DNA of 64,000 nt from Cycas panzhihuaensis. Lineage: Eukaryota > Plantae > Cycadophyta. Under the pieces are notes generated by a model. It was not told the DNA's origin. It did no database searches and saw only the letters and a program-made list of their open reading frames with translations. Every line of letters begins with the position of its first letter. The stretch's first letter is position 1. A program made the position numbers and the translations under genes. The DNA lies in contig CM041465.1 of the NCBI GenBank assembly GCA_023213395.1, positions 248,813,741 to 248,877,740 of the forward strand, given 5' to 3'. This document shows positions 352 through 53,764 of this stretch, piece by piece.

Positions 352-1763
352 TCCCCTCTTAATGTAAATATGGGGTAATAAGGTTTATCATTGGGAATAG
401 ATCCCCTCTCAAGGATAACCTTACCCAACCCAATATACACGAATTTCAATGTGACAATCTTCAGTTTGAGCTTGGTGAATACATCCATAATTTAATCTCT
501 ACTTGGACAATCTTTAACCTGCATCTTCCCTTATTTGGATGTAATGGTGCTATGCCTTGTATGTGCTCAATTCTTTGGAAATACTCTAATAGAATTATAA
601 CCATACAACTCTCTCTACACCAGATACTTTGTCCATACAACTCAACCATATTCCTTTGACTAAGCCAAGAGGTTGAGCCACTTGAGCCATATGAATCACC
701 TCTTTGAGTCTTCATTAAGGAATACTGATATGATACAATACGATACCCAACTATCTGAAACTGCTAAAATAAATATCAAACAGACCAAAAGCAACATAAA
801 GACTAGTGCAAATGTCTCATCATACATTAATCCTTCTTCCTACTAAAGATCACATGTGCAACAAGTCTTCAAACTTGCAAACTAACTAGGTTCTTTGCTT
901 CAATACAACTCTCCATCATGACTTTGTACTCACTGGAACATTGGTATCTATCATAAGATTTTACTAGCATATTGATCCATGATCTTCAATCATCCTATAG
1001 GTCTTTAACTATCAATAGAAGATAGGTTTGTAATCCATGTCTACTTATTTAACAGCTCTTCATCGTCAATCTCTCACTAGATCTTGCTTCCATCTCAAGA
1101 ACAATGTTAGGTAAACAAACCTCCACACCTGCTGAATAATGACTTAGAAAAGTGAAGAAATAAAGGATAAAATTTGTAACCAAATGATACTAAGTATGAT
1201 ACGTCAATAACTCTTTAACTATATATCTAGACTAATCATAACACATTCCCTTACAGATCACACTATTTGTAAGTTAAACAACCCATAGTCTTCAAACTCT
1301 TGCAATCCCACTGCTACAATCTTAGTCTAAGATGTGTGCACTCTAATGCACTAAAGGAAATAAATGGAAGGCTTCTGACTTAGTCCAAACATACAACAAG
1401 AGGGGAATATATGCCACGAACAGTCATAATAGGGCTACCCATACCTGTCTGCTATAGCTTCTACCATCAAATCTATGGGAGGCAAACCAAAACATATACT
1501 AACCTCACCATCTACATCATAATACTCACCTGTAATATAACCTTACAAGCCAAATGTACATACCATGACAAAGGCATAACTAATTTTAAGGCATCTTGTC
1601 TTAGACCTTTCCATTCACACTTTAACTTTCATTAAACACTCTATCTTGATTCCACATCAGACCAGTTCATATATGCACCTATATTCAAACAACATTAAAC
1701 TAGGCCACAAACCTTATGCTATCATTAGTCTAACTAGCAAAGTATAATGGCCCATCATCAACT

Positions 1764-7190: not shown

Positions 7191-9048
7191 CACAACAGGG
7201 ATATAGAAATGAATACTATGATGAGAAGCAAGTAATAATTAAATATTTTTCAACAACTGTGAAAAATGAGTATAAGCAATAATGTAAGAATAAGGCCTAA
7301 TATAGAGCTGACAAAGGGTGGTGATGTGTCATGCTACTAACCTCTAACTTATGTCCAAATATAGGTGAGGTTTTCATGCCTAAGGCTTCTAGTATACGAT
7401 TAGGGCCTTCACCCGTGATATCTACACCTGTGCTTGGTAATGAAATCCAAGTGACAATGGAGTCCAAGTACTCTCAGTTCACTAATGAGTATCTATATAT
7501 CTCCTCTAAAGAGTTAAATAGTATGTGTGTATCCCACAACTATGATGGATATTGGATTGGTTTAATTTTAATCTTACATTAAGGTTTTCATTTTTTTCAA
7601 GTGGTTATTAGAATTATCCATGATTATAGGCCATATGTATAGCTAACCTGTCCATCCACCACTATTCTGGTCATCACCAGATTCAGTATGAAACTCATAC
7701 CTCCCTTAGGGCCCAGACTTCGGCCAACCATAGTCTATTTCAACTAAGTCAAGAATTGGTGGTATAAATCATACAAATGAGATTCTTTTTAGGAATAATG
7801 TAAGTTATTTCTAAATAACTAAAAACTAAAATAGAAAGTTGTCAAATATGCTTACTTTTCTTTCATGCTTGCTTTGTTGTTGTTATTACTTTATGTGATG
7901 CTTTATGCTATGTGTGCAAATAGAAAAAGCATGCTAGATTTAGCAGGGGAACTGGATGTTGCTTCTGATCTAAGGTTTCCCTTGCTTTAGTACAATGTTT
8001 CTAAATATATTTTTAGAAATTTCAATACAAAATCCATAAATGGCTAAAAAGCAAATCAACTTACCACTAAAATATTAATTTTTATAAATCTAGATGCATG
8101 TTATTTTGTCTTATTTTGTGAGTTTTTTCACAAACTTTATAAATAATAATAAATGGCCAAAATTTTCTAAAAATTACAAATATGAAGGCCTAAATGATGG
8201 AATTTAAATTTATGGTAGAAAAAAAAAAGTGTTTAGAATATTATTTTCAATAGAGTAGTGAAGTCAAATTTCTGAAAAGGCGTAAAATATTTTTACCTAC
8301 AAAAAATATAAAAGCTGAATCTTACCAGATCCACTATCTTAGAATCTGAACTTCAGTATGCCAAAAGTTACATCTTAACATGTACATCAACTTTTCCTTT
8401 TATACCATATTTAAAATTAGCCAAAAAACTACTTGAAATGCCCTCATAATATTTTTTGTAGGGTTAAGAAGGTAAATTCAATATCCGTGAGAAAATTGCA
8501 AAGATCTCACTAACCAGTGGATGAAATTTAATGAGATTTATCTTAAAATGATCCTAAGACATAAATCTACTAGATCCCTAAAAAATAAATTCAGATTTTT
8601 AGTTTATGTTTAAAGGATTTCATTGAGAAAATTATCTTAAGTCACTTATTCGTAAATTTTAACCTTTTATTTCAGCTAAAAATCGTTGTTTCAAGTTGAA
8701 TCTAAAGCTACTCTAGAAGACAAAAATGACCCTCTTAGTAAGAAAATCCTACACACCAAATTTTATTAAAATTTGAGATAGTCAAAATTTTCTTAAAATT
8801 TTAGGCCTTTAATGCTTCTGAGATTGTTTCGATAACCAAATGGCTTAAAAAACTTGTATTTTTCACCTCTAAAATTTTATACATATAGAGAAAGTAGAGA
8901 CATATGAAGTAATATAATTTTAAGTTTTCAAAATTTTAAAAATAATGAGTGCACTCTCAATACTTTACATTAAAGATGAAGGACATGTAAAATGACTCCA
9001 TGCAAGTAGAATGGAGTGAATAGATCCCTTTCTAACTCTGATACCACA

Positions 9049-18200: not shown

Positions 18201-20995
18201 CACTTGAGGGTCAAGTTATAGTATGGTTTTCGATTAATAGTAGTATGTTTAGATCATGGAATAAAAATTCTTATTAAGATTTCAAAAATGAGATAGTAAG
18301 TCATCAACATTTTGAGATATTAATAATCCCCTAACAAACACCTATGAAATAGGAATTGAGCCAAGTTGTAACCAAATTGAAATAAAATAAAACGGTGGTG
18401 AATTTCCTAAAGAATATTCTAACATGGAATATGGGAACAAAGTAATTGAGCAATTACAAGCATATATGTTGAATCAAGATGGCAAGGTGATATTGAGTGA
18501 ATAATTAAACATATGACAGATAGATGTAGGCATGAAAGAATATCCCCAAATGATCTCAATAAGAGACTATTGGGATAAGGAGATTGTGTAATAGGCCACA
18601 AGTTTGTTTTTAGAATATAAAGATGTTTTTGCATGGTCTTATCAGTACCTAAAGGGGATACCACTGGAACTGGGAGAACATCGAATTGAGCTAATAGAAG
18701 GAATGAAGCTAGTTCGCCAGCATCCTTATCAGTTGAATCCCTAAGGAAAGAGTGAAAGAAGAATTGGATAAATTATTAGAAGTTGGGTATATTTTTGAAG
18801 TTAAAACTAATGAATGGGCAAGTCCAATAGTAGTAGTATCCAAAAACAATGGGAATCTTCCTATTTATGTAGATTACAGAGCTCTTAATAAAGCAACAAA
18901 AAGAGACCCCTTTCTAATACCTTTCACACAAGATATTCTGGAGAAGATAGCAGGCCATGAAGTTTACTCATTCATAGATGGATTCAGTGGATATAACCAA
19001 GTGAAAATTATGGAGCAAGATCAACTGAAGACAACTTTTATCACTGAATGGGGGACATATATGTATAAGATGATGCTCTTTAGATTAACAAATACACCAG
19101 CCACCTTTTAGAGAATCATTCTGAACATTTTTAGTAGGTAATTGGTAAGTCCATTAAAGTTTTTTTAGATGATTGGATGCTGTATTCATTATTAAAAAAT
19201 CACTTGGTAAATTTGAAAACAATGTTAGAGATGTGTTGGAAGAGCAAGCTTTGTTTAAACCTGGTAAAATGTACATTTTTTATTTCATTTAGATCCCATT
19301 TAGGGCATATTGTAAGCAAAGATGGCTACAGACAGATCCAAGTAAAGTGACAATAATCTTGAATTTTCTAGTACCCAAAACAACAAAACAGGTGAAGGCC
19401 TTTTTAGGTATGATAGGGTACTATAGGAAATTTATCAAAGGATATGTACAGATTATAAATCTTTTAGAAAATTTGCTTAAGAAAATGATAGCCTGGGAAT
19501 GGAATTTATAACAACAATTAGCATTCAAATTACTGAAAAAGAAAATTATAGAAGCTCCTATTTTAAGATTTCCATATTGGGATCAACCATTTCACATTCA
19601 CGTTGATGCTTCCTTAATGGCAATATGATGTGTTTTAATGCAACCTGGTAATAATAATATAGACTTGCCTATTCATTTTGCTAGTAGAAAATTGACCCCT
19701 ACTAAATAGAATTATTGAGTTACAGAGTGGGAGAGTTTGGGCATGGTTTACGCCCTATAGAAGTTTAAGCATTGTTTACTAGCTAACCCATTCATTTTTA
19801 ATGTAGATCATTAAGATTTGAAATACTTAATAAATAAACCTATTTTATAGGGCAGAATCAGCAGGTGGCTAATGTTATTTTAAGAATTTAATTTTTAAAT
19901 TATAGTTTAAAAATGTGACAAACATACAATACTGGATGTTCTCTCAAGGGAAGTGGAAGGGGAACCAGCCATAGGAGTACCAAATAACTTTCTAGATACA
20001 CAATTATTTTCTATAGAGGCCATACTGAAATGGTATGAAGGGATTACAAAGTACTTAGCCACTGGGTAGATATTGAAGGGACTAGAATGAGTGGAATGAC
20101 AAAGTTTTATTCATAAAACTTTTCCTTTCTAACTGGTATGAGGGATGCTATATAAGTTAGGCTTAGATGGTATGTGATGATGATGCAGAATGGAGCATGA
20201 GGTGTAGGGCATTTTGTGAGAAGCACATAAAGGGGGAGCAACCAAGCACCAAAGAGTTGAACCGACAATCAAGAAAATCTTACTAGTAGGCTTTTAGTGG
20301 CCATCAATATTCGAGGATACGACAAATGGATAAAAGGATACGATGTGTGTCAATAGGTGGATAAGTCGAGCAAGAATCATTTTATGCCCCTACATCCAAT
20401 TTTGGCACATACACCTTTTGAAAAATAAGGATTGGACTTCATTAAACTGATAAGTCCCCTAGTGAAATGAACAAATGCAAGATATATATTAGTAGCCATA
20501 AACTTTTTCATAAAATGGATAGAAGCTTAACCACTTATACATTGTGATACAAGAAGTACTATAAAATTTTTATATAAAAATATTATTATTTATTTTAGGT
20601 GCCCCTTAGAGTTGGTATCAAATTAGGGTAATAGATTTTTAAATAGTACTATAAAATATTTAACCAACAAATTTATGATCTAACATTTTTAATCTCCCCC
20701 ATACTACCTTAGAGAAAATGGTCAAGTAGAAAGTACTAACAAAATTTTAAAAATTGCCCTATAAAAATATGGGCAAAATGGTTGTATTATGTCCTTCGGT
20801 CCAATAGGACAATGATTAAGTGACCACATAAGTAGATACCATTTCAGTTGGTGTACGGACTAGAAGTAGTACTTCTATTAGAATTCCAAGTGGAAAGTTT
20901 TCGAGTGGCAATACAGTTGAGGATGAATGAATAGAACTCGTGGAATGTATGAATGATGGAATTGTTTAATTTGGATAAAAAAAATGCATAAGCAT
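15292..20995 (+). pseudogene. gag-pol pseudogene of gypsy D
   Basis: Gag FDGS..RDHL..F...TLRGAAIAWF (~15950-16140); two CCHC-like knuckles (16858-16899, 16930-16974); protease ILDRG (~17465); RT EWASPIVVV..VDYRALNKATKRDPF..DGFSGYNQV (18752-19111); RNase H HVDAS (~19600); integrase ~20200-20950. Confidence 0.92.
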
Positions 20996-29589: not shown

Positions 29590-32500
29590 ATATGTATTCC
29601 ATAATAATGCTTAATATAAGTCACATCAAATTAACTGGACTTGATAGCTTTCAAGATTGAAAAAACCAAGCAAATAATCTGCTCATAATAAATAAACTTT
29701 AGGAATATGTATCTGGAAGAATCCCCAAGCTTACACCAACTCAAAGCACTGTGGATGTTAATGTTACAATTCCTACTGATCATATTCTTGCTACTGCATG
29801 GGAAGTCAAATATGAAATTGCCTTAGATTTCATCCATTTGATTATTTATAATACTGTAAATGAGAATATTACTAATGCTGCTACATGTAAAGATACATAG
29901 AATACATTATTATCATTGTATAAAAGGCAAGACGATGCCTACATTGTAATGCCTAAAGCAAAATTGTTTACTATTAAATTTGTTAAGCCAATGGCGAACT
30001 TTTTTATCTATTATTAAAGAAATAAATAATCAGTTAACAACTTTAGGTAAACCTAAATCTAATAAAGACCATGTTACTACTATAATTCATGATTTACAAT
30101 GGGAGTACAACAACTTCATCTCCTCCATCATAAGAGGAGGCTCTTTGGGTACTACTACATTTAAATAACTAGAAAGTATCTTACTACAAGAGGAGCAAAT
30201 CTACTCTCGACAAGAAGAAAGGATGACTTCAGGAGCATTTACTACTAAGTTTAAAGGCCAACAACTAATAGCTCCTAAACAGAATTTATATAAATAGTTT
30301 AGAAACCTCAATATTAGTTCTTTAAAAACCAAAATATTTGTATCTCATTATTCTGGCAAGATGGGCCACATTCAACCCGATTGCAGGAAGAAGCAATTTA
30401 ACCTATAGCAGTAACAACATCAACAACCACAACAATAACAAAGATAATATAACTAGTGGAGGCAACAATAGTAGTAACGACCCCCACATAGACCAAATTG
30501 AGGTGCATTTTAAGGAAATCAACAAGAAAGGGGGGCATTTAAAGGTGGCTATTAAAGTCACATAAATTAATATTCTAATAAAAAGATGTTTTATGTATAT
30601 CACAACAACATAAGCAACAACACTTGCATTATCGAATCAAGAGCATCTTATCATATGATTGGTGATGCTAACATGTTATATAATATTAGTAAGAGCAAGG
30701 TATAAACTATTACCTTTGGTAAAAATTAAACAATATAGATATCTAGTGTTGGAAAATTTACTTCCTTCTACACTTCAAAAGAACCTACTCATATATTTAC
30801 CATTGATGATACATTCTTGGTGCCTTGAATGCCTAAAAAATTGCTACCTATTAGCCAACTTGATAAGTAACAAATAAACATATTTTTTAAATTTAGAAAA
30901 TGTCTAATTAGTGATAAATATGATCAAGTGATTTCCATTGGTCATGAAGATAATGGATTATACAAATTAGATTCATCTCAAGCAACACTTTATACTTCAC
31001 AAATCTATATCACTTAGTCTTTAACTAAGGAAAAACTATAGCACAATAGACTAGATTATTTAAGCCTAGAGAGAATTAAATTGATGTCTTGCAAAAATAT
31101 GGTATTTGGCTTACCAAAAATTTTAGTAGGTAAGGGCCTCTATGAGACATGTATTATGTGGAAATAACATGGAGAGCCTTTTTAGAGAGGCAAAGCATAG
31201 CGAGATTCACAACTATTGTAACAGCTTTATATTGTTATTTATGGACTCATGTCCACATAATCTTTTAGAGGAGTATCATACTACAATACTTTCATTAACA
31301 ACTTCTCTCACAAAGATTAGGTAGACTGCATTAAATTCAAATTTGAAGCATTAAAAAAAATCAAAAAATTTAATCTTGTAGTAGAGAAGGAATCATGTAT
31401 ATAAATTAAAATGTTATGGTTTGATAATAGAGGTGAATCTACTTCAAGAGAATTCAACCAAATTTGCATCAATCATGACAATAAAAGACAACTCATTATT
31501 CCATACACACCATAATAAAACACAATAGCTGAAAGGATGAATAAGACTTTGGCTAATAAAGATAAATCTACAATGCATACTAAAAACCACCCATTAACCT
31601 ATTGGGTAAAAACACTTCATACAGTTGCTTATGTCACCAACAAAAGCTCCCAAACAACTATCTAAGATATGACACCAGAAGAGGCTTGGACTGGTAGGAA
31701 GCCAATTGTCAACCACTTGCACATCCTTGAGTGCACAACCTATATGTATGTTCCCCATCAACAAAGATAAAAGTTAGATAAAAAAAGTTTTAAATGCCTA
31801 TTTATTAGTTATGGAATTAGAAGCAAAGTAGATAGAGTTTATCATCTCATTGGAAAAAACATGCATGCAACTACAAATGTAATCTTTACTAAAGATAATG
31901 AGGAAATAGACTAAACATTTATCCATATTCTTCTTAACAAAGGAAAAGAGATTATTTAAGACTTCATTTCCTCTTAATCATCAACACCGTGTACATCTTA
32001 TGCATATATATCTTCTTATCCACATCAACTCTATCTTTTTCATTAGCTTCTCTTGATCCTGACAATCTTTCTAACATTGAGAAGCCTTTACAAGCTTAGG
32101 ATATTGAGGTCACAATTATAATGATGAAGAAAATAACAAAACAATGCATGTAAACTATATAGGATGCTCAAGTACTTGAAGAAAAATACCCATCGAGGAT
32201 AAGGCAGTAATTTATCAATTATACATTTATGGCTGGAGGGATTTCTATTGATTAACCTTCCACTTTTGAGAAGGCATGTAGAGATAAAAACTTGAAATAT
32301 TGTCATGGATGATGAAATCCATTCTATTGAAAAGAATAGAACTTGGTATTTGATAGAATTTCCTAAAGTAAAATGTGTAATTAACTGCAAGTGGATCTAT
32401 AAAACTAAATTTTGATTTGGCAGTTCATTTGAGCATCACAAGGCTTGACTGGTTGCTAAAGGATCTAAATAAAATGAAGGAAAAGTTTATGATCTCATTA

Positions 32501-34410
32501 GAGAAAACATGCATGTAACTACAAATATAATCTTTACTAAATATAATGAGGAAATGAACCAAACATTCATCCATATTCCTCTTGACAAAGGAAAAGAGAT
32601 TATTCAAGACTTCCTTCCCTCTCAATCATCAATACCATGTACATCTTCTGCACATATATCTTCTTATCTACATCTCCATCTTTTTCATTAGCTCCTCTTG
32701 ATCCTGACAATCTTTCTGACATTGAGAAGCCTTTACAGGCCTAGGACATTGAGGTCACAACTATAATGATGAAGAAATTAATGATACAGTGCATACAGAT
32801 TATATAGGATACTCAAGTACTTGAAGGGAAATGCCCATCAAGGATAAGGCAGCAATTTATCAATTATACACTTATGGCTAAAGGCTTTCTATTGATGAAC
32901 CTTCCACTTTTGAGGAGGCATATAGAGATAAAAACTGGATTGTTACCATGGATGATGAGATTCATTCTATTGAAAAGAATAAAACTTGGTATTTAATAAA
33001 ATTGCCTAAAGTAAAATGGGCAATTAACTGCAAGTGGATTTATAAAACTAAATTTTGATTTGACAATTCAATCAAGCATCACAAGGCTTGATTAGTTGCT
33101 AAAGGATCTAAATAAAATGAATGCATAGATTATGATAAAACCTTTACACCATTTGCAAACATAAACATAATTAGACTGATATTGGCCTTAGCTACATAAT
33201 GCAAATGGCCCATTTATCAAACAGACATCAAGAGTGCCTTTCTTAATAGAAATCTTAAAGAGGAGGTATATTTAGAGAAACCTCTTGGATACGTAACATT
33301 TGGCAAAGAACATATGATCTATTTCCTTAAAGAGGATTTATATAGCTTAAAGCATACCCTACATACATGATATTTGAAAAATCGATCACTACATTTGAGA
33401 TATAAATTTCATCAATCCTCATTAAACCTAAACTTGTACATAAAAGTTAGGGACCAACATGCTATTTTTGTTGTATTATATATTAATGGATTAATAATCA
33501 TTAGAAGTGATACTAAGATGATAAAAAATCTCTAAGAGGACCTAAAGAGAAGTTTTGAGATGATAAATCTGGGAGTTTACAATTATTTCTTAAGCATAGA
33601 GGTGTGATAAAAACGAGGCAATATCTTCATTTCCTAAGTAAACTACACTTGGGACATATTGTAATGCTTCAAAATAGAGGACTATAAACTACCACCTATA
33701 CCTATAAAGAGTGGTATCTAATTGACACTTGATGAGAAATCACAACCTATGGATTCCACACTTTATTGACAACCGGTGGGTAGTCTTATATTTGATTAAT
33801 ACTAGACTTGACCTATCATTTGTAGTTAGAATTTGCTTACGATATATATCTCAACCTAATCAGAAGTATTAAATAACAACAAAATGTATACTGAGATGTC
33901 TTGAATGCATATTAAAATATGGCCTTTAATATACATACAATAAGGACTTCACACTAGAAGGATTCTTAAAATTTGATTAGGATAGTTGCCAAGATAGTCA
34001 TTAATCTACCTCAAGGTATTATTTTAATCTCAAATCAAATGTTATCTTATGGAGTTATAAGAAGCAACTAGGTGTTATTTTGCCCTCCATATAAGCAAAA
34101 TATAAAGTTGTAGTCAATGTAATATGTGAGGCAATAGAACTAAGGAAAATTCTTAATGAGCTTAGACTTTAGCAATCTCACCCCACCAAACTTTACTATG
34201 ACAACTAAAGTGTGCTCAAGATGACTAAGAATCTAGTGTTTCATGCAAGAACCAAGTATATTAAGGTCTATTACCACTTCATTAGGAACATGTATAAAAT
34301 GATGAAACTAACCTTGTCTACAAGCCTATAGATCAATAGTTGTTAGATATCTTTACCAAACCACTTGGTAGAGAAAATTTTGAATAATATAGATATAGTC
34401 TTTGGGTAAT
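29590..34410 (+). pseudogene. gag-pol pseudogene of copia E with a ~650-bp internal tandem duplication
   Basis: Gag fragment at 29980-30168; integrase 'AERMNKTL' ~31530; RT and RNase H motifs up to 'DIFTKPL' ~34350. Confidence 0.9.
31833..33123 (+). repeat. Tandem duplication, 2 x ~648 bp
   Basis: 31833-32480 and 32481-33123 align along their full length. Confidence 0.95.
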
Positions 34411-36799: not shown

Positions 36800-38840
36800 A
36801 AAAACCCTTCATTGAGCTCTTTCAAAATATTTACATGGTTGTTAAGCCTTTGTTACCAGAAATCTCAGGTTAAAGATAAAATACTTCTAACACCCATTTA
36901 CTCAAGGTGCTCTCTAAATCACTTTTCCCATCAGTAGTAGTAACTATGCCTTTTATGTAAATCTTATGCTACATTTTCTAGCTTAAAGATAATCTTCCTT
37001 CATGATAGATGTCTATCCATACTATATTTATATAGATTCACCTAGTGCTATATCTTTACACTATGCATTGTTTAAAAGCAATAAAGTTGTCATGTGAGCC
37101 AATAAAAGGATTATGTATTCCAACATATTTTATGCATAAATTTGTGTAGTCTTCTTTACGATCACAACCCATAACTTTAGGACGCTCAACATTGATGTTT
37201 AGGCTATGAACTCTAATTCTCTCATAGCAATCCACATAAGAAAACCATAGAATAAGAGCCCTAATAGTGAGATCTTCAAACCATTAACAAGTTCTTCTTG
37301 CACTTTATCCCTATTTATCACTACAACTCTTTGTTAAATTGTAATACTTAATCATCCATTTCTTACTAAAACACAAATCAACATAATCAAAATGTAATTA
37401 ATTTGATCCAATGTCTTGCTTGAGCCATAGAAACAAGTAATGATCTTTGTTTCATCCAAAATAGCCCTTCTAGTTTTCTTCTTGTGATCTTTATACATGA
37501 GCTTCTACTTAAGCCAAACAATTCCAATCTCCTTTATATATCCATATTCCTCAAGCCCCTTGAAGGGAATGAGGGTCTCTTTTTTTTATTTTCACTAGGG
37601 TTTTTCTCCAATTTCACAACCCATATAGGGTTTTGCTCCTCATTTTCATGATGGCCCTCACTTTTATCTTCCTTTTAAGCCACTGATCAACAAGCTTATA
37701 TATATTGTAAATATAAAATAGTAGAAATGAAATGAAAAAAATTAGGGTAACATTTTTTTTTTCCATCTTTCCCTCCCTTGCACTATCCTTCTTTCTCCAT
37801 AATGGGCCTAATTGTTTACTATAAACTAGTCAATGATAAGTTTAAAAAAAATAAAATTCAACATGAAAGAACAAGCCAAATATGTCAATATACTAGCAAA
37901 CAATGATCTAAAAATACTATCAACAATATATGCAAAATATTAATTTTGTAAAATATACAATAAACCTTACATCCTTCTGTATTTGCTCAACTATATACAA
38001 TAAATAGAAATTCATAAAGCTAATCTTTTAGCCATTAATCCTCCCTATAAAATGCATGTTTTCAACTTGTCCATCCTCACTTTTTCATGTCTCCATGGTC
38101 ACCATAAGCACCAAAAAGAAATCAAATTAATTACATAAAGTATCATCAAATATTCAAAGCAACAAGCATGACTCTCATTTTTTTTTTTTTAATTAGTGTC
38201 TAATATTCTCCAAGATCAAAGCATGGATATTTGATACCAAATGTTAGTATTCTCTAATACTAGTTGTTGATGTTGATCCATAGTCCTAATACCATATGCA
38301 ATATACAAGCAATTAAATAAACAATTAACCCAACTAGACTTGAATTAAAGATTTTTAAAAAATGTAAAATATCTATGAAATACACTAAAGAATTAAATAT
38401 GTATACAATGCAATGAATAATCTATATTAGAAGAATGACCAAACTTTAATTATTCAATAAAATAATATACATATTTATTAAATAAGTTCACCTTATATAA
38501 GATAACCTAAAAGTCAACTTTTGTGCGCTTGACATCTGATCATAAATTACTTTGATTATGGTGTTGCTACAAAGAGAATTGGTTATTCAATGCATGTTGC
38601 TTTAGTGCCTTTTAGTAGGATTGACATTAATTTTAAGCACCCAAAAATATAGTGAAGAACTGCTTATTTTTTATGCTTTTAGAGGACCATCTTTCTTTAT
38701 TTCTTAAAGAATATGTAGGCTCCTAATAAAGCTAATATGTCAGTTTACTGATGACTCATCTTAAGGTAAAGATGATCTAATACGTAAGGTAGTATGTTGG
38801 ACTCCATTCTAGATGAATTTAATGAATTTTTCAACATTCC
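36800..38840 (-). mobile_element. Element M: very decayed LTR element fragment; boundaries uncertain
   Basis: ttgatacca-aa-tgttag (PBS + LTR end) at 38231-38247; only faint coding-like texture to the left; no partner LTR found. Confidence 0.35.
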
Positions 38841-39345
38841 TAGTGCTGTAAGTATTTTAGGTTTATTATCCATTATACTCTTAGAAATAAATCTACACCA
38901 AGTAAGAAAAAGATGAGGAAATTATGTTTATGGTTATAGTTTCTTATATTTAGTTTAATATTTTCAACAATCTCTTCATACTATAATGTTATGTTTCCTA
39001 GGTTAAAGACTTGTACCTCTATTTTCTCTTAAATATGTAGTCTTGGCTATATTACCTATCATAAATTGATTAGGTTGTAGAAACTTCCAAAATCTATGAG
39101 AACTACCATATGTTTTCTATATAGCCTACAATTTGTTGCTAGTATATAAAATTCATAAAAGTTAATGTAATGTTTAATTACCAATCAAGTCATCATTGAC
39201 CAACACAAAAAGGTTTTTATACACGATCTTATTGGTTAACATGTCGATAAAATGATAATATATGATAATGAGTTGACATACTATACAAGGATAATGTATA
39301 TCATAAGATAATTAGATCACCTAGTCCTCCTTATGATGCTAGATA

Positions 39346-39653
39346 TATAACAAACCATTACACCAAAACCTGAATCGAAAGAGAAAAATCCAATTGCATA
39401 TGATAACACAAAGTTAAAATTACATATAAGAGTATAAAGCATCTATAATCACATATATCGATGGGCCTCTTCGAGAGGGCAACCTCCAATACATAAGATC
39501 ACAATACTTCCAGATGATCCTCACTCCTACATTACATACATATATATAGGGCTATTAAGACTGCCCATCTGTTACACTTATGAATATGGGATAATTACAA
39601 GAATAGAAATATAAGATTTGAGAAGAAGAGAGATAAGGGTTGGGTTCTTAACA
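39346..39653 (-). repeat. 3' LTR of element F
   Basis: Aligns ungapped to 43486-43793. Confidence 0.96.
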
Positions 39654-39679
39654 AGTTCCCCCCTTTTTTGAAAAGTTTT

Positions 39680-42600
39680 GCCCTCAAAGCTTGACTAGTC
39701 CAGGATGCTCTTAGATAAATTACTCACTTTTCCAAGTTGAATCGTCATGTGGCAACTGCTTCCATTTGATGAGATACTCTTTGATGTGTCGAGAGCACAA
39801 ATGCCTAACCCTTTCCTCCAATATTCGTTCAGGTATCAGTTGAAGCCTCCCTTCATTATCCAATATTGGCAATTACTTGTCAGTGCACTTCATCGCTCAA
39901 TTACCCTTTTAAGACAAGATACATGGAAAACATTATGGATTTTAGTTGTTATAGGTAACTCCAAGGCATAAGCCACTTCCCCCACTCGTTTAAGGATTTT
40001 ATAAGGTCCATAAAACCTTGTCTCCAACTTGTGTTTACCCTCTCTTTTAAGTGAAGTTTGCTTGTATGGTTGCAAGTGCAAGTAAACCCAATCTCCTACT
40101 TGAAACTCTCGTTCATTTCTTCATTTATCTACTTGTTGTTTCATTCGATTCTGAGACAAGTTAAGGTTTTCCTTCAATATCTTGAGTGTCTCTACCGTTT
40201 GTTGTAGATGCTCCTCCACTCCTTAAACTTTAGAATTCTCTATGGCGTAGTTCTTAATAGATGGTGGTTCATACCCATATAATGCATGGAAGGGAGTTGT
40301 TTTTGTTTCTATATGGTAAGTAGTATTATACCACCATTCTGCCATGGGAAGCCAATGATGCCATTAATTTTGTTTATCCGATACGTAGCATCGGAGATAT
40401 CCTTCTAAACATTTATTAACCACCTATGTTTATCCATCTGTTTGTGGGTGGTATGATGTGCTCATTATTAGTTTTGTACCTAAGGCTTGGAAGAGTTCAG
40501 TCCAAAAAATGCTTATGAACTTTGGGTCTCTGTCACTAACAATCTTCTTAAGCATTCCATGGAGCCGATATATCTCTTTTAAGAAAACCTCAGCAATTTG
40601 TTTTGCTTTATAAGTAGATTGGATTCCACAAAAATGAACATACTTTGTTAATCTATCAACAACTACAAGGATGGCATCCCTCCCATCCGGTTTTGGTAAT
40701 CCTGTGATGAAGTCCATGGATATTTCTTCCCATCTTTGATTTGGTATAGGGAGTGGATGCAATAGACCAGGCATCTTGCTCATTTCACCCTTTTGTCGTT
40801 GGCACACTTCACAAGCTGCAACCCATCTTTTAGTATCTTGCTTGAGCCCATTCTAATAGAAGGATTGATTAATCCTTTGGTAAGTCTTTAGGAATCTAGA
40901 ATGGCCTGCTATTGGAGAGGCATGTACATCATGCAATATCTTCTCCTTAATCTTAGAATCAAGACTAAGATATATTCTATTTTTGTACCACAGGATGTTT
41001 CCTACCCATGAAAAGCTTTTATGACTATCTTAATCAACCTGTAGATCCTGTATTAATTGCATTATCTTGGTATCCTTTTCCCACTCTTCCCTTGCCTCCT
41101 CAATCCATGAAGAGGTAACTGTTATTAATGCATATAATATAGAATCTCCTTCCTTTCGTGATAGGGCATCAGCTGCTATATTTTCCTTTCCTTTTTTATA
41201 TATGATTTCAAAATCAAAACCTTGCATTTTAGAGACCCATTTTTGTTGTTCCTCAGAACCTACGCTTTGGTCCAAGAAATACTTCAAGCTTTCGCGGTCT
41301 ATCTTTATTTGGAAATGGGTTCCAAGTAAATATTGGTGCCATTTTTTAATTGCTTGTAGGATTGCCATCATCTCTTTTTCATATGTAGACTTGACTAAGT
41401 CCTTGGACTTCAGTTTTTGACTTTCAAAGGCTATGGGCCTCCCTTCTTGCATGAGGACTCCTCCAATACCTTGTCCCGAGGTATCACATTCAATGATAAA
41501 TGTTTTAGTGAAGTCAGGAGTTGCTAAAACTGGTGTTGTAGTCATGGATACCTTTAGGCTATCAAAGGCTTCAGTAGTGACATCTGTCCATATGAATGAA
41601 TCCTTCTTTAATAATTGTGTCAAGGGTGTTACAATCTTGGCATACCCTTTAACAAATTTTCGGTAGTACCCTGTTAAACCCAAGAATCCATGTAGCCCTT
41701 TGATGTTTTTGGGTTGTGTCCAATTTACTATGGCTTCAATCTTCATTGGATCAACCTTGACTCCCTCTTATGAGATGATGTGCCCCAAGTACTCCACTTC
41801 ATGCCTTCTAAAATTATATTTTGATCTGTTTGCAAAGAGTTTATTGTCTTCTAATAATTGCAAAACCTTATCAACATGTTGAAGATGTTATTTCTTTGTC
41901 CGGCTATACACTAAGATGTCATCAGAAAACACCAAGATAAACTTCCTTAGATAAGGTTGAAAGATTTTATTCATGAGCCCTTGGAATGTGGTTGGTGCAT
42001 TGGTTAAGCCAAAAGATAATGACTAGGAATTCATAGTGGGCTTCATGGGTGCAAAAAGCTATTTTGTAAGCATCAACAGCCTTGATTCTGATTTGGTGAT
42101 ATCCAGATTTTAAATCTGTGGTGGTGAAAAGGGTTGTTCCATTCAATTCATCTAATAACTCATTAATCACTGGTATGGGAAATTTATCTTTAATAGTAAT
42201 TTTATTTAATTCCCGATAATCCACACACATACAAAAGGATCCATCCTTCTTTTTTACCAATATTACAGATATCAAAAATATGCTTTTACTTTCCCTGATA
42301 GCCCCAGCTTCAAGAAGTTCATGCACCAATTTTTCAATTTCATTCTTCTACTGATAAGGATATCTATAAGACTGGATGCTAGGTGGATTGCTACCAGCAA
42401 TAAGTTCAATGGCATGATCTTGTTCCCTTTCTTGAGGAAGCCCCTTAGGAATGTCTTCAAAAACCTTGCTATGTTTGACTAACACTTCTTGCAATTTAGG
42501 TGTTAGATTATTGTCCTTATGAAGATCTTCCTTTGCTACTAACTCATGCCCTTCTAATGTATAACATCTAACTATAAGTCCAGTTCCACCTTTTCTTAGA

Positions 42601-43226
42601 AGCTTCTCCATCCTATATAAGTTGATGACCTGTGATGGAGGTGGGCTAATTCCATTGAGTTGGTACTGTTGCCCTCCTGAGTTAAAGCAGATGAATAATT
42701 CCTCCAAGTTAAGTTGAAAAGTACCTAATGTTTTTAGCCATTGTACTCCCAAAACCACATCGACTCCTCCCACTGGAATGGCATACATTGAGGAAGCCAA
42801 TTGGTAATCTCCCATAGTCATTTAAATATTATGGCATTTATCTCCATAGGCTAACGTACCACCATTAGCAACCATAACTTGAAAATTCTTAACTGGATAA
42901 GGAAAACAATTTAGTTCTTCTGTAAGTTTCCTATTGATAAAATTATGGGTGCTTCCTGAATCAATTAAGATGACTACCCTTTTTTTCTTAATGTATCCTA
43001 TAATCTTCAAGGTCTGTCGAGCTACAATCCCTGCTAAAGCATGGACAGATATTGTTGATGTGTTCTCTTCTTCAATGTTTAGTGGTTTAGGAGCAATATC
43101 ATCTTCTACAATAGCTTCTTTTAGATCTTCTTCCTATGTATCTTCAATGATGAATAGTCATCTTTCTGAACATTTATGATCTTTATTCCACTTCTCATTG
43201 CATTAAAAATAAATACCCTTTATCAT
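39680..43226 (-). pseudogene. pol pseudogene of chromovirus F (Zn knuckle, PR, RT, RNase H, INT, chromodomain)
   Basis: LIDSGSTHNFI (42822-43010); [19 protein letters not shown] (41967-42329); [25 protein letters not shown] (41030-41746); ISMDFITGLP..SDRD..YHPQTDG (40430-40807); GPYKILKRVGEVAY.LELP; chromodomain EYLIKWKQLP.DDSTWE (~39700-39840). Confidence 0.96.
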
Positions 43227-43228
43227 TT

Positions 43229-43485
43229 GCTCTGATACCACTTATAACGAATCATTACACCAAAACCCCAAGGTGTTAGTGAAGATGGCCCCCTACCAAG
43301 TAGACCATTACCTCCCCCCTAGTTCAAATGGGCTAGCCCCGCTTTCACCGACGTTCTTGCATCCCACAGGCCCCGACTATGATGGCGTTTTACGCATCAG
43401 CGATATTTAGCACGTCACCCCACCGCCCCCATAAGCGGTGTTGCCCCCACGGGATTTGAACCTGGGTCTTGCCTCTGATACCACT
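43229..43485 (-). mobile_element. TRIM-like cassette: PBS - B-box - PPT - 68-bp mini-LTR - second PBS
   Basis: PBS1 43472-43483; GGTTCAAATCC 43452-43462; PPT AGGGGGGAGG 43311-43320; mini-LTR 43243-43310, whose last ~25 bp match the U5 end of the F LTR; PBS2 TGGTATCAGAGC 43229-43240. Confidence 0.7.
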
Positions 43486-43793
43486 TGTAATGAACCGTTA
43501 CACCAAAACCAGAATCAAAAGAGGAAAATCTAATTGCATATGATAACACAAAATCAAAATTACATATAAGAGTATAAAACATCTGTAATCACATGTATCG
43601 ATGGGCATCTTTGAGGGGGCAACCTCCAATACATAAGATCACAATACTTCCAAATGATCCTCACTCCTATATTACATACATATATATAGGGCTATTAAGA
43701 CTACCCATCTCTTACACTTATGAATGTGGGATAATTATAAGAATAGAAATATAAGATTTGAGAAGAAGAGAGATAAGGGTTAGGTTCTTAATA
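43486..43793 (-). repeat. 5' LTR of element F
   Basis: tgtaatgaacc...ttcttaata; adjacent to the PBS. Confidence 0.96.
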
Positions 43794-43954
43794 AGATAGA
43801 TCATTATAAGGATTATTAATTACTTTTCATTAAAATGATATCTCATATATATTTAGATGTAGTTTTTCCCATCTAGGGCTTTCCACATATAAATTTGATG
43901 TATCATTATGATATTTTTCTATTATGTATGACTATGTAAAATGGATATGTGCAT

Positions 43955-44343
43955 TGTTAAAACATTAATGATATCTTATTTGTAAATGTATCTTTTATAT
44001 CTATGTATCATTAGTTGTACCATATTGTAATTGAATTGTAATGTATGATGTTGTTAGATCTACCCCTTATTGAATAATGAGCCAATTGTATTGGCTCGTT
44101 ATGTCAGGTAATTAAATTAATATTCGAGATGTATCGTGGCCTATAAATTATGCATGAACGCTCTTCTATATACATTGAATTTCTAGATACAATGAAGCTC
44201 TACCAAATTGAAGATTGACGATGCCAACTAATTTGGTCATCTCTATTTTGTATAAAGAATTTGTATTGAACTATCATTTACTTTATTTCTACTTTTATTT
44301 AGGTATGCACATGAATATTTTAGATCTTGTGTTGATTTTTTCA
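43955..44343 (+). repeat. 5' LTR of element H
   Basis: tgttaaaaca...ttttttca. Confidence 0.95.
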
Positions 44344-46170
44344 TGGTATTAGAGCTATATTATGTGTATGTACTCAGTCAATTATAGGTATATGACATTG
44401 GAGAAAGCTTGGTTCTATTTTGTTATAAAAATAGGACCCTCATTTGATCTTGTTCACTTCCACTCAAAAAAATGACAATCTATTTAAATTATTTAGGACT
44501 CTATTTGTGATGTTCGATTGCCATCCTTACCATGTCAGTCATCTGTTAGCATTTGGCCTTTACATGTATAGTTATAATTGTGGATGTGGATCATGTTTTG
44601 GACCTGATTACTATCACGCATGTCATCATAGTTATCCTCTAAGAGTCTTGGATTCTTCACCTCATCTCTACGACTATAACCTACTACTAGTAACCTTCTT
44701 GTAGCTATGACCTATCATCTATCAATTTGTCTGAGGCATCACATCCCCTGCCTTGTGTGATACATCTATTGCTCATTGTCTAGTGTCGTGGATCTAGTGG
44801 TGTTTACTCCTCAGCTTAAACAAGCCTTACTTCACTCCTTGGTTATCCTCTATCACCTCCCTATAATTGCCTGAGGTAGGTCACGATCAAAGCAAGTGCT
44901 CTAGCATATAAGTGATTTTGATCGAACCTTGTTTTTACTTTCAATTTGTCATCATTTATATCTTTTTTACTCCTTGTTCACTGTGAAATTACATGGCTCA
45001 TATAAATCATTAGATCGCCCCCCCCTCCCCACTAAAGTTTGATGTGATTTATGTATATTTGAATTTTATTATAAATCTGCCAGCCCCTCCTGGGTCTAGT
45101 AGGTGGTCACATGGAGCAACCCAATGACTAAGGGATTAGTAGCCAAGAGGGCTTAAGCCCATTTCATTTATGTTTTTATTGCCTAAGGAGGTATGCTCAT
45201 TGTTTTAATGATAAATGTGCAACGAGAGGTTTGTCTTTCAAACTATAAGATCTACCAAAATCTAGAGTTAGAGCTCTACAACCTAGAGTTAGTTTTAGAT
45301 TAATTTGGATAGAATTTTAGGGCATTTGATTTAGTTAAAGTAAACCCTTTTTAATGATTGTTTTACTAATTGAGGACTTATTTCACATATTTCAAAGGGA
45401 ATTTTTTGTTATTTATTATTCACATTCATCTCATTAATTGTTCTACCTAATTTGTGGTTAACATTTATATTTTCCTTGTGGTTGTAGGTGCCCTACTTAA
45501 GTGAAGGAGGTTACTCTCATCTTACAACTATAGTCCTTCTTTTAACACCCTAAGCCCTACCCTCTTTTCATTTATTTAAATTTCCTTTTAGTCTCCTCCT
45601 TTTTTTTTTTTTAATTAAAAAGGAACCCTCATTTTAAAACGACCACACTTAAAAAGAAGTTAAACTTGAAAGATTAAAAAGGTAATTCTAAATTTAAACA
45701 TCAAAATTTTTTCAACCTTGTAAGGGGAATGATTAGGATCCCTGAAGTTATCACTTCACATACGAGTTTTCTTTTTATCAAACTCTGTAGATATTAGAGA
45801 AAGTTATTGGCTATAAGGTGTATTGGGTGGCAGATTTAGGTGTAAACCATCCTTAGAGTTTGGAGACTAGGCTAGACACGAAGGAGATGAGTGCCTTGGT
45901 TTATAGTTCTTTACTATATCTATTATTCGATATAAATCTAGTATAGGCAAACAAACAGTGTTAGGGGGGCACATCAACCTTCCATGCTTATAGAGCTTAA
46001 CTTCCTCATGTACTAAAGTATATAGAGTCCCTGAACTACCACTTATGAGTAGACACCACTAAACAAAATAACAATCAAGGGCTACCTAGAAACCCTTAAG
46101 GCTATAACATTTTAGTTTAGTAGCACATTAGGTAGATAGAACATAGAAACACACAAATATAGTAACATAA

Positions 46171-50430: not shown

Positions 50431-50818
50431 TGTTAAAACATTAGTGACATCTTATTTATAAATGTATCTTTTGTATCTATGTATCATTAGTTGTACCATA
50501 TTATAATTGAATTATAATATATAGTATTGTCAGGTTTGCCCCTTACCAAATAACAAGCCAATTATATTGGTCTATTATGTTGGCTAATTAGATTAATATT
50601 TGAGGTATATCATCACCTATAAATTATACCCAAGTGCTCTTCTATGTACATTGAATTTCTAGATACAATGAAGCTCTACTAAATTAAAGACTTATGGTGC
50701 TAACTAATTTGGTCATCTCTATTCTATGCAAATAATTTACATCGAAATGCCATTTATTTTATTTATGCTTTTATTCTGTATGCACACGAATATTTTAGAT
50801 CCTATGTTGATTTTTTCA
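50431..50818 (+). repeat. 3' LTR of element H
   Basis: tgttaaaaca...ttttttca. Confidence 0.95.
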
Positions 50819-53764
50819 TGCATCTCTTCATTTAATATGTTTGATACTTATCTTAAACACTTTATGAATGATTCATAGTTCATTTATTGTTCTTAAAAGT
50901 TACATATTAATAAATGTTTCATATATCTACCTACTTAGTTACATAAGATATTATCATAATGTTAACATAGTATCACAACTTATTTAAAAATTTAACACAA
51001 TATCAAGGCTTTTACATCAGTCATGTCATAACTTTTAACATGGTATTAGAGAACAGGTGAGGAGACGTCACATCAAAATGACACAACGAAAGTAGAAAGC
51101 TAAGATAAGTAAGAAGAAAACCACATGAATAGTTATAGTCTATGTCGTTTAAGAATGATCCATGTATGCATTATACATGGATTTGAGGAGCTAGTGATAG
51201 GTCAGTAAGAGTTGGTATCTAAGTCAAAAACTAAGCTATATTGATGGCATGTACTTGAGATTATTAGGGAAAGATGAAAAAGAAGTGATAAAGATTTAGA
51301 ACCATTAGTGAGAATGTTTACATTGATAGAATAGTTGAATGTATATTGATACATATAATTAAAGGTCCCATGGATGTAATGAAGAATTCAATGCCTCTAT
51401 TCCATGAAACAAACAACACATCATTGTTGGATGTAAGAAGAGATATGCAGGCATGATAGAACATGGCATAGTGAACAACATGAAAGGTAATTAATTAGTT
51501 GTTTGGAGGCATCGAGGTTTATGAAGATCCCACAATTTAGTTGAGCACTTCTAGATAGATAATGAGGCGATTTAAAATATCAAGAAAGCAACCAAAGATA
51601 AAATATTGGCCCATGAGAAGAAAGGCACTAACCAAGATGCCATCTGTCAGACAGACGATGGTAACAAATAACCATGGAGACGCATTATCCATAGTTCAAG
51701 AGTTCTTCAAGCTTTCCATTATCTTAAGAATAGAATAGATTGAGTCACTCATGAATTATTTATCCCTTAAAATTACATCTGCAAGCTCGATGAAATCTTG
51801 GTGTTGACATCTACCTCGGGCTAATTGTAGTTGCGAATCACAAGAACCACAGAATCTCAAATTTCAAGTTTGAGAATGAAGACAAATTATAACAAAGTGG
51901 AGAACAATAAAGGCATGAAAAGATATCTCATTTAGATCATAGATTGGCTATGGTGCACCCAATGGATCATTTATTTGGTGATCCAAATGCAAATATAGTA
52001 CCCAAACATCCTTAGAATCAATTGTAGACATGAATAATTTGTCTATGAAATTGCATTTGAAGTAAAGAAATCCTAAACATGAAAATGCACAAAAATGACA
52101 CAATGAATTCTTGATCATATTTATTTTTTATAATGTTGTGAATAAATTTAACCAGATTAAGTAATTTATTTAGATTTGTTAGATCCTACAAAGAGATGAG
52201 TGGATGGTCACATGGAGCTGTAACACGATCACAAGTTAAATACAGCAGGTGTTATGTTTATTTTTACCTTGATTTTATTTTTTAAGTGATATACTAATAA
52301 TGTTTTGAATATAAATTTTTAGTCTGAAAACATATTTCCAGCTTGTCAATTGTGTTGAAAAGAAGACTCAAACACAACTAAAACAGGTGGTCACAAGGAA
52401 TAATTTTAATACCATATCATGAAGATTTTAATCGATAGATATTGATAAGTAGTTTATTGCATGGTAAAAGATACATTTTCTAAGTAATTTAAGACATTTT
52501 TTATGATTTTAAAGACTCGTAAATATATTTGATAGAATTGGATACTTGATGATGAGTTTGGATAAATGTTTTACTGAATATTAATAAAAAGAGACATGTT
52601 AAGGCTCGATTATTACATATTACAGCTCAAAATCAAGATGTGAAGTAAATGAGAACTTATTCGATGATGAACATGAGACAAATACACGTTGGACTTTATA
52701 ACAAAATCCCCCTAATGCATTTAATACATTTGATGTAATGACTGCAACATTGATAAAATAACATTAGAGATAAAGTTGATCAAATATCATCTAGTTTGGT
52801 ATATCATTTAGTTCTATAAGGTACATAATGACCACCTAATTATTTGAATAAAATTTTTGATTGAATAATGAATGAATGATAGATATATTTGATACCACTT
52901 AATAATTAAAAGAATGTTGCTTAATTGAGTTATTGTTAGTTGAGAGTATGAATTCATTGAGTTACCCACCTGATATGAGATGAGAAAAGGTCTCATAAAT
53001 TTGATTGTTGATCAATTTGTAATAACGATTATAGGTTATCCATAAAACCAAAATCAACTGTTGAGGAGTCTAGTTGATATATGTTTCAGTTAGAAATCTA
53101 ATAGTTTTATATGGTAAGAGGCATGGAATATATTTTACATATTATCTTGTTACAAAAAATTTGGCAAGCAAGGTGATACACCATGTCCAAGGAATTAGTT
53201 AATTTGATAATTGATTGATTGATAAGATTAGTTACTAAAGAAAGTTGCAAGGGTTACCTTGTGTAGAATTTCTAATGGTGGAGCATAAAAGCTTTCCCAT
53301 ATCTTGTAGGACAAGAGGTAACAAAAAAATCATAAACTACTTTTGTTACAACATCTTTGTCTAATCACAATATGTTGTTCTCTGTTTGTGAAGTTGATAA
53401 ATCACATATGATAAATATTTCATATATAACTAGTAATTGTAGGACTTGGTTACCAATATAATTTCATAGATGGTTATTGTTTTATATGGACATTAGTGGA
53501 TTTGGTTTATTTATAAGTTGATGATTTTGTGTTGCAGTTTATATAACTAGAGGATATAAAGTTGTAAGTAATGTTTAATCATCAATTTATAGGTGGTGTT
53601 ATAAGTTAAGATATTGATGATATAACTAAATCTGCTTACTAAAGAACAAGCAATGAAGATAGGTTTGATGGTTTATATATTCATACATGATATAAAGACA
53701 TGATAAGTAGATGAAAATATTTAAGATTTCCATAAATAAAACATTTAAGGCGAGTGGGAAGGGG

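What the first reader, a model, noticed from the sequence alone, without database searches (positions are those of the whole stretch)
43229..43485. Chromovirus with a TRIM-like cassette and a second PBS in place of gag
Seen in sequence (minus strand): 5' LTR, PBS1, ~150 bp GC-rich segment, PPT-like AGGGGGGAGG, a 68-bp mini-LTR, a perfect second PBS, then directly the C-terminal gag zinc knuckle (CNEKWNKDHKC). The mini-LTR shares only its last ~25 bp (ggttttggtgtaa.g.t....ta.a) with both full LTRs. Established: PBS-short internal-PPT-short LTR is TRIM architecture. Inference: a TRIM and a Reina-like element recombined by template switching, the element shares the TRIM's U5/att end, and the chimera inserted as one unit (matched LTRs, perfect AGATA TSD). 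This would directly link a TRIM to its helper lineage and show a parasite riding inside its helper.
Basis: partly seen in the sequence, partly recalled or inferred. Interest (0 to 1): 0.8.

Follow-up and report, generated by a model that had tools for sequence, protein, structure and literature searches.

The report
Mini-retrotransposon spliced into gymnosperm chromovirus
A decayed plant jumping gene carries one unit of a tiny, abundant parasitic jumping gene in place of most of its capsid gene; the two share a 25-base end and a primer site, and the join likely arose when both were copied in one particle, which would point to the parasite's helper.

Summary
A 4,448-bp gypsy element with a chromodomain (308-bp LTRs, 24 differences, 5-bp TSD) reads LTR-PBS1-GC-rich internal-PPT-68/70-bp mini-LTR-PBS2, then the gag zinc knuckle. 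About 310-330 gag codons, including the capsid domain, are missing. Contigs of five public runs show that the cassette is one unit of an independent multicopy TRIM family. There, the mini-LTR rather than the long LTR precedes PBS and internal, mini-LTR ends abut unrelated flanks, and gag continues upstream in other chromovirus copies. So this is not an ordinary leader. The shared 25-bp U5 end is a multicopy trait of the long-LTR family and fits that LTR's own start (9 of 11), so capture from the TRIM is not shown. Matched LTRs and TSD do not date the chimera, because a later DNA-level event would keep them. No second chimeric copy was seen, and the element lacks capsid, so 'riding inside its helper' is unsupported. 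Best reading: a template-switch chimera of a TRIM and its probable helper (0.55), against repair after insertion (0.3). This is a new variant of known three-LTR complexes. Interest 0.42.

The parts
43794..43798 (-). 5' target-site duplication (TATCT on minus, AGATA on plus)
43486..43793 (-). 5' long LTR, 308 bp; shares a short internal motif with LTRs of pine-type relatives
43486..43510 (-). 25-bp U5/att end shared by the long LTR and the TRIM mini-LTR; junction 1 lies within this U5 plus PBS1
43472..43483 (-). PBS1, initiator-Met type (motif assignment recalled); last letter differs from most contigs
43321..43471 (-). TRIM internal domain, GC- and CpG-rich, non-coding, multicopy
43452..43462 (-). 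B-box-like / tRNA T-loop-like motif GGTTCAAATCC just after PBS1; the only match in the window; function untested
   Evidence: 9 of 100 shuffles had at least 1 match
43311..43320 (-). TRIM polypurine tract
43243..43312 (-). TRIM mini-LTR, 68-70 bp (start 43310 or 43312)
43229..43240 (-). PBS2; junction 2 to gag lies at its 3' end, where the GAG at 43232-43230 fits both sides
43140..43228 (-). gag C-terminal remnant with zinc knuckle; about 310-330 N-terminal codons, including capsid, absent
39696..43139 (-). decayed pol: protease, RT, RNase H, integrase, chromodomain (about 39872-39696); 16 stops in three HSPs, plus frameshifts
39654..39670 (-). polypurine tract of the chromovirus
39346..39653 (-). 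3' long LTR, 308 bp; 24 differences from the 5' LTR (21 transitions, K2P 0.084)
39341..39345 (-). 3' target-site duplication

Best explanation
The locus is a decayed chromodomain-bearing gypsy retrotransposon in which one unit of a multicopy TRIM (PBS, internal, PPT, mini-LTR, PBS) replaces the leader and most of gag, and the chimera likely formed by template switching while TRIM RNA and chromovirus RNA were reverse-transcribed in the same particle. Shown: the anatomy, the free TRIM family, the shared 25-bp U5 and PBS, the gag loss, and both junctions sitting on replication signals. Inferred mechanism, preferred version: the chromovirus plus-strand strong-stop DNA (long LTR plus PBS copy) annealed to the PBS of the TRIM minus strand. 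It copied internal, PPT and mini-LTR and ended again in a PBS copy. That 3' end then annealed at a GAG microhomology on an incomplete chromovirus minus strand at the gag knuckle. This explains a PBS after a complete mini-LTR and a junction exactly at the PBS end. Minus-strand switches, or a tandem-TRIM transcript, give the same product. The product had correct att ends and would have been integrated, but without capsid it could move again only in trans; no amplification was seen. It implies (inference) that this chromovirus lineage packaged and mobilised the TRIM.
For: Anatomy. Free TRIM: loose ends at 43510 in 65, 43, 60 and 86 contigs of X1, X2, X4, X5 contain the 14-mer of the window's own mini-LTR (43272-43285), so the mini-LTR normally precedes PBS and internal. 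Loose ends at 43245 in 36-53 contigs per run (4 of 4 runs) have agreement of only 0.42-0.46, which means unrelated flanks. Loose ends at 43229 in 35-48 contigs (3 of 4 runs) resemble the start of a TRIM internal. Loose ends at 43222 (16 contigs, X1) and 43232 (4 contigs, X3) read like upstream gag. Both junctions coincide with U5/PBS, the signals used for strand transfer (established retrotransposon biology). The cassette is about as decayed as the LTRs: 17 of the 40 listed variant rows fall in its 241 bp, 14 of them transitions, and the inner U5 differs from the outer U5s by 4 and 2 of 25, against 4 of 25 between the outer ones. Precedent: three-LTR complexes with TSD are attributed to template switching (PMC1950507).
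Against: Matched LTRs and TSD do not separate this from a post-insertion event. One contig shows a tandem TRIM (table 5, X4, depth 4.8), so a DNA template for repair-type copying exists. The age comparison rests on 25 nt and has little power. No contig bridging either junction was listed: 0 of 32 shown, and none of the 32 shown of about 18,400. Both lists are cut and only about half of each run was read, so neither the chimera's reality in independent data nor its copy number is shown. Co-packaging is not observed. The beet survey argues that non-autonomous elements may use any available machinery (PMC13570524), so one recombinant need not identify the regular helper.
Confidence: 0.55

Rival explanations
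1. Post-insertion DNA repair. An ordinary chromovirus inserted, then a break in its leader or gag was repaired by copying from a tandem TRIM (or a TRIM circle) through the shared 38-bp U5+PBS, and rejoined at the GAG microhomology. One TRIM unit was gained and gag was lost, with no co-packaging.
For: It keeps the LTRs and TSD. A tandem TRIM exists (1 contig). Tandem TRIMs are common in plants (PMC4717578 passages; PMC4079214 passages). The cassette keeps more CpG than pol (12 in 241 bp against 26 in 3,541), which could mean it is younger.
Against: It needs ectopic invasion through only 38 bp and a second junction falling exactly at the PBS end. The cassette carries many private transitions, so it is not fresh.
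Confidence: 0.3
2. Nested insertion plus deletions. A TRIM inserted between the long LTR and its PBS, its 5' mini-LTR was then lost by U5-U5 recombination, and gag was deleted separately.
For: Nested insertions are common (PMC1950507 background). The end state is compatible.
Against: It needs a hit on a 2-bp spacer plus two later deletions, and no TSD relic is visible.
Confidence: 0.05
3. Assembly mis-join between a long LTR, a TRIM and a gag fragment.
For: No independent contig bridging either junction was listed, and junction 1 lies in a repeat.
Against: The perfect TSD and matched LTRs enclose a colinear pol. Junction 2 has only about 3 nt of homology, too little for a repeat-induced mis-join.
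Confidence: 0.05
4. Ordinary leader. All family members carry the segment, and the TRIM was cut out of the helper's leader.
For: The two share U5 and PBS. TRIMs can be deletion derivatives of full elements (PMC4717578).
Against: 30 of 32 listed pieces stay within 43432-43510 and none enters the long-LTR body. One long-LTR piece (X1 record 8, depth 14.8) stops at the PBS end and goes on unlike. 6 of 6 relatives checked have a single PBS. The cassette finds only matches of up to 26 bp in 80 loci.
Confidence: 0.05

Closest known systems
Template-switching complex LTR elements (Angela, Squiq, Opie complexes; PMC1950507, whole text read)
   Same: Internal LTR flanked by PPT and PBS, similar outer LTRs, 5-bp TSD, proposed co-packaging of two RNAs.
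   Different: There both halves come from one family, with complete cores. Here the inner LTR belongs to a different 68-70-bp TRIM sharing only 25 bp, and gag is truncated at the PBS2 junction.
Tandem-array TRIMs and multi-LTR Cassandra (PMC4717578 passages; PMC4079214 passages); tandem LTR retrotransposons (PMC11899658 abstract and discussion)
   Same: PPT-LTR-PBS internal junction.
   Different: Homologous repeats of one element, not a TRIM unit inside a coding chromovirus.
Chimeric and modular non-autonomous LTR families of sugar beet (PMC13570524, abstract, sections 27 and 32, part 1 of 2 of section 35)
   Same: Chimeras with LTRs from other families, template switching, and families retaining pol domains without GAG/PROT (7 of 15).
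   Different: The chimeras named in those sections are TRIM-TRIM. No TRIM unit inside a chromovirus is described in the sections read; supplements were not seen.
ta-TRIM and lennie of Echinococcus (PMC4558846 passages)
   Same: Helper candidate inferred from a shared LTR terminus, PBS and TSD length.
   Different: Eight shared bases at the LTR start and no physical chimera; here 25 bp of U5 and a physical recombinant.
Veju-L, BARE2 (cited in PMC1950507), SNRE and Dasheng partnerships (named in PMC4079214; details recalled)
   Same: Non-autonomous elements reshaped by recombination with other elements.
   Different: Those amplified as families; amplification is not shown here.
Helenus/Ajax/Cassandra TRIMp3 (PMC10886601, parts 1-3 of 6 read)
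   Same: TRIM with a box-B-like GGTTC motif.
   Different: There the tRNA- or 5S-derived part lies in the LTR. Here the motif lies after the PBS, with no tRNA or 5S match.

Membership tests
Chromovirus (Ty3/gypsy) | PR-RT-RH-INT order | tested here: met
   Pfam on five ORFs (the protease hits are below the curated cut-off); colinear tblastn
Chromovirus (Ty3/gypsy) | Chromodomain at the integrase C-terminus | tested here: met
   PF00385 E 2.6e-9, above cut-off
Chromovirus (Ty3/gypsy) | Paired LTRs, PBS, PPT, 5-bp TSD | tested here: met
Reina clade (includes Ifg7, PMC6317226 table passage) | Placement with named Reina references in an RT/RH/INT tree | not testable with these tools
   The quick RH tree (85 rows) puts the element with Ginkgo Gb_00235 (SH-aLRT 96) inside a 16-row group with PITA_23675 (98). 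No row carries a lineage name, and the reference FASTA was not among the supplements held. PMC3350952 notes that conifer 'Reina-like' chromodomains form their own branch.
Autonomous LTR retrotransposon | Complete gag and open pol | tested here: not met
   Capsid absent; 16 stops plus frameshifts
TRIM (cassette family) | Under 1 kb, non-coding, PBS and PPT | tested here: met
   about 310 bp for a two-LTR unit, computed from the window parts
TRIM (cassette family) | Independent copies with a mini-LTR at both ends | tested here: met
   5' side from loose ends at 43510, 3' side from loose ends at 43245, internal-PPT-mini-LTR pieces such as X4 record 26. Pieced from short contigs; no single full copy listed.
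TRIM (cassette family) | TSD around free copies | not testable with these tools
   No genome held; contig letters are not returned
TRIM (this window copy) | Two own mini-LTRs | tested here: not met
   Only one mini-LTR; the upstream LTR is the long LTR. It is a TRIM unit, not a free TRIM.
Template-switching complex (Sabot and Schulman) | Internal LTR, similar outer LTRs, flanking TSD | tested here: met
Template-switching complex (Sabot and Schulman) | Two complete core sequences | tested here: not met
   TRIM core complete, chromovirus core lacks leader and most of gag
Template-switching complex (Sabot and Schulman) | Formed before integration | tested here: inconclusive
   Needs orthologous loci or further copies; none listed
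Cassandra / Ajax | 5S rRNA-derived sequence in the LTR | tested here: not met
   No 5S match at E up to 10 over 38000-45000
Helenus | tRNA-derived boxes A and B within the LTR | tested here: not met
   The B-box-like motif is in the internal domain; no tRNA call over the cassette

The most novel reading that the evidence does not exclude
The chimera is a fossil of co-packaging. A gymnosperm chromovirus lineage is the helper of an abundant, apparently undescribed TRIM family. The two keep an identical U5/att end and PBS, and a double plus-strand transfer through the shared PBS produced a capsid-less chromovirus carrying a TRIM unit, which then spread in trans as its own family.
Probability: 0.15. 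Interest if true: 0.68.

Novelty: new variant of a known kind. Interest (0 to 1): 0.42.

Why it matters
Which autonomous elements mobilise TRIMs is largely open. Only 11 of 289 plant TRIM subfamilies had a related longer element (PMC4717578), and 61 of 115 beet families had no traceable partner (PMC13570524). A physical TRIM/chromovirus recombinant joined at U5-PBS, together with a family-wide shared 25-bp att end, names a testable helper lineage in a gymnosperm. It also hints at how three-LTR structures can form through the PBS. As a single old, dead copy it is circumstantial evidence, and three-LTR chimeras are already known.

Tried and rejected
No genome was held for the window, so a genome-wide copy census was impossible. 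The window has no second copy of the cassette. U5+PBS or mini-LTR pattern scans found 0 matches in metagenome contigs and in viral contigs. The protein search of viral contigs gave no relative. No RNA holder was listed. The cassette fold is not clearly above shuffles (z -1.52). Rfam and ARAGORN gave nothing meaningful. The idea that the long LTR hides a decayed earlier PBS and leader, from an earlier capture event, came from one alignment. Against shuffles it gave z 0.5-2.4 among 56 comparisons, so it is not accepted. The idea that terminal inverted repeats prove the U5 is TRIM-derived was rejected: the U5 end matches the long LTR's own start at 6-7 of 10 within each LTR and 9 of 11 between the 3' LTR start and the 5' LTR end. 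The Reina look-up in supplements found nothing; only 5 small files were held. Earlier scan findings: none. Eight literature searches listed no paper on a TRIM unit inside a chromovirus or on this gymnosperm TRIM; the library lacks most subscription papers. Summed contig depth was not used as a copy number.

Full report
Observation. On the minus strand the window holds a 4,448-bp LTR element, 43793-39346. Its two 308-bp LTRs differ at 24 sites (21 transitions, K2P 0.084), and TATCT flanks both ends. After the 5' LTR come AG, PBS1, a 58%-GC non-coding segment, AGGGGGGAGG, a 68-70-bp mini-LTR, AG, a perfect PBS2 and then the gag knuckle. The mini-LTR shares only its last 25 nt with the long LTRs (21 and 23 of 25; the next 30 nt match at 8 of 30). 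Relatives align from residue 313-331 onward, starting inside PBS2, so the capsid domain is missing. Pol is in gypsy order with a chromodomain and is decayed (16 stops in three HSPs).

Lineage. The best single-domain protein matches are 57-71% identical and mostly unnamed; named gymnosperm hits include Ginkgo Gb_00235 and PITA_23675. A quick RH tree of 85 rows groups the element with Gb_00235 (SH-aLRT 96) inside a group of 16 rows that includes PITA_23675 (98) (the careful search did not finish). Twenty runs hold part of the region (at most 42% of its words), under 14 organism labels. A multi-species gymnosperm genus, perhaps a cycad, is an inference only. 'Reina-like' is plausible but could not be tested against named references.

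Is the cassette a TRIM? No genome was held, so I laid Logan contigs of five runs on two stretches (about half of each run read, tables cut to the best rows). At 43510, where the window goes on into the long LTR, 43-86 contigs per run instead carry loose ends containing the window's own mini-LTR 14-mer 43272-43285. At 43245, 36-53 contigs per run leave the mini-LTR into unrelated AT-rich sequence (agreement 0.42-0.46). At 43229, 35-48 contigs in 3 of 4 runs continue after the PBS into a sequence resembling a TRIM internal start rather than gag. Pieces such as X4 record 26 span internal, PPT and mini-LTR. One contig repeats U5-PBS-internal, which is a tandem TRIM (table 5). Together these show a free, diversified TRIM family of about 310 bp. 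TSDs of free copies could not be read.

Is it the ordinary leader? At 43222 (16 contigs, X1) and 43232 (4 contigs, X3) other copies continue upstream in gag-like sequence. Of 32 listed pieces across junction 1, 30 stay on the TRIM side and 2 are long-LTR pieces. One of those two stops at the PBS end and goes on unlike for 12 letters; the other may be this element's own orthologous 3' LTR. None joins long LTR and cassette internal (3,204 pieces not shown). Among 80 related loci the cassette has only matches of up to 26 bp. The 6 gymnosperm-group loci I checked, each with a 5' end, have one PBS 648-956 bp before the gag match. The ordinary-leader reading is unlikely, though close family members with a full leader were not available.

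The shared U5. Long-LTR body joined to this U5 is multicopy. At 43511, 8-19 contigs per run (summed depth 207-959, against 3-15 for single contigs) cover the border, with up to 26-39 letters to the contig end. The sharing is therefore a family trait, more likely a precondition of the recombination than its result. Related LTRs end in CATAACA, unlike this element, which might suggest a graft. But the U5 end is also a 9-of-11 inverted repeat of the long LTR's own start (3' LTR start against 5' LTR end), and alignments of the distal LTR to relatives were not above shuffles. The direction of sharing is unresolved.

Mechanism. Both junctions sit on strand-transfer signals: junction 1 within the 38-bp U5+PBS identity, junction 2 at the last letters of PBS2, where a GAG fits both PBS and gag. 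A lone TRIM has no PBS behind its 3' LTR, so PBS2 needs either a tandem template or a copy of the primer made during plus-strand synthesis. The most economical account (inferred) is one round of reverse transcription in a particle holding both RNAs. The chromovirus plus strong-stop DNA transfers to the TRIM PBS, runs through the TRIM to a second PBS copy, and mis-anneals on a short chromovirus minus strand. The main rival is break repair after insertion from a tandem TRIM. Matched LTRs and TSD do not decide between them. The cassette's decay (17 of 40 listed variant rows in 241 bp) suggests it is old, mildly favouring one event; its high CpG content leaves room for a later arrival. I put 0.55 against 0.30, with 0.05 each for nesting, artefact and ordinary leader.

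Comparison. Three-LTR complexes with TSD from template switching are described within single families (PMC1950507, whole text). Tandem TRIMs are common (PMC4717578 and PMC4079214, passages; PMC11899658, abstract and discussion). TRIM-TRIM chimeras and gag-less pol remnants occur in beet (PMC13570524, named sections; supplements not seen and may hold similar cases). A helper inferred from shared ends and PBS is known for ta-TRIM and lennie (PMC4558846, passages). The cassette is neither Cassandra nor Helenus (PMC10886601, parts 1-3 of 6). Eight searches listed no TRIM unit inside a chromovirus, within a library that lacks most subscription papers.

Verdict. This is a real TRIM/chromovirus chimera and a useful pointer to a helper lineage for an abundant gymnosperm TRIM. 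It is old and dead, has been seen only once so far, and its mechanism is inferred. New variant of a known kind; interest 0.42.

Noticed in passing
window 43452-43462 (-): A B-box / T-loop-like motif follows the PBS, and loose ends of sister TRIM copies show a similar one. It could be a pol III box or a second annealing site for the primer tRNA.
   Followed up: partly
window 43468-43510 (loose ends): Several TRIM subfamilies seem to mix different internals and different mini-LTR bodies around the same U5+PBS module.
   Followed up: partly
window 43486-43502 (-): The shared U5 end is itself a short imperfect hairpin (TGTAAC...ATTACA), repeating an LTR-start-like hexamer 17 nt before the end.
   Followed up: no
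window 43600-43790: The central long LTR has very high summed contig depth (up to about 100,000 at 43670-43700), far above the gag side, hinting at many solo or non-autonomous users of this LTR.
   Followed up: no
L011 about 820-856 (+): A related conifer-type element has a near-duplicate of its LTR end and PBS start about 21 bp upstream of the true PBS, another case of PBS duplication.
   Followed up: no
window 31825-33136: Two tandem copies of about 645 bp (87-88% identity) inside decayed retroelement sequence.
   Followed up: no
window 43794-43917: The flank beyond the 5' TSD is itself repetitive (depth in the hundreds to thousands), so the element sits nested in another repeat; 43955-44345 recurs at 50431-50820.
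   Followed up: no
window 18743-19973 (+): Another decayed gypsy-like RT-RH region, 30-38% identical to P0077; further PBS motifs at 9046 and 11489 on the minus strand.
   Followed up: no
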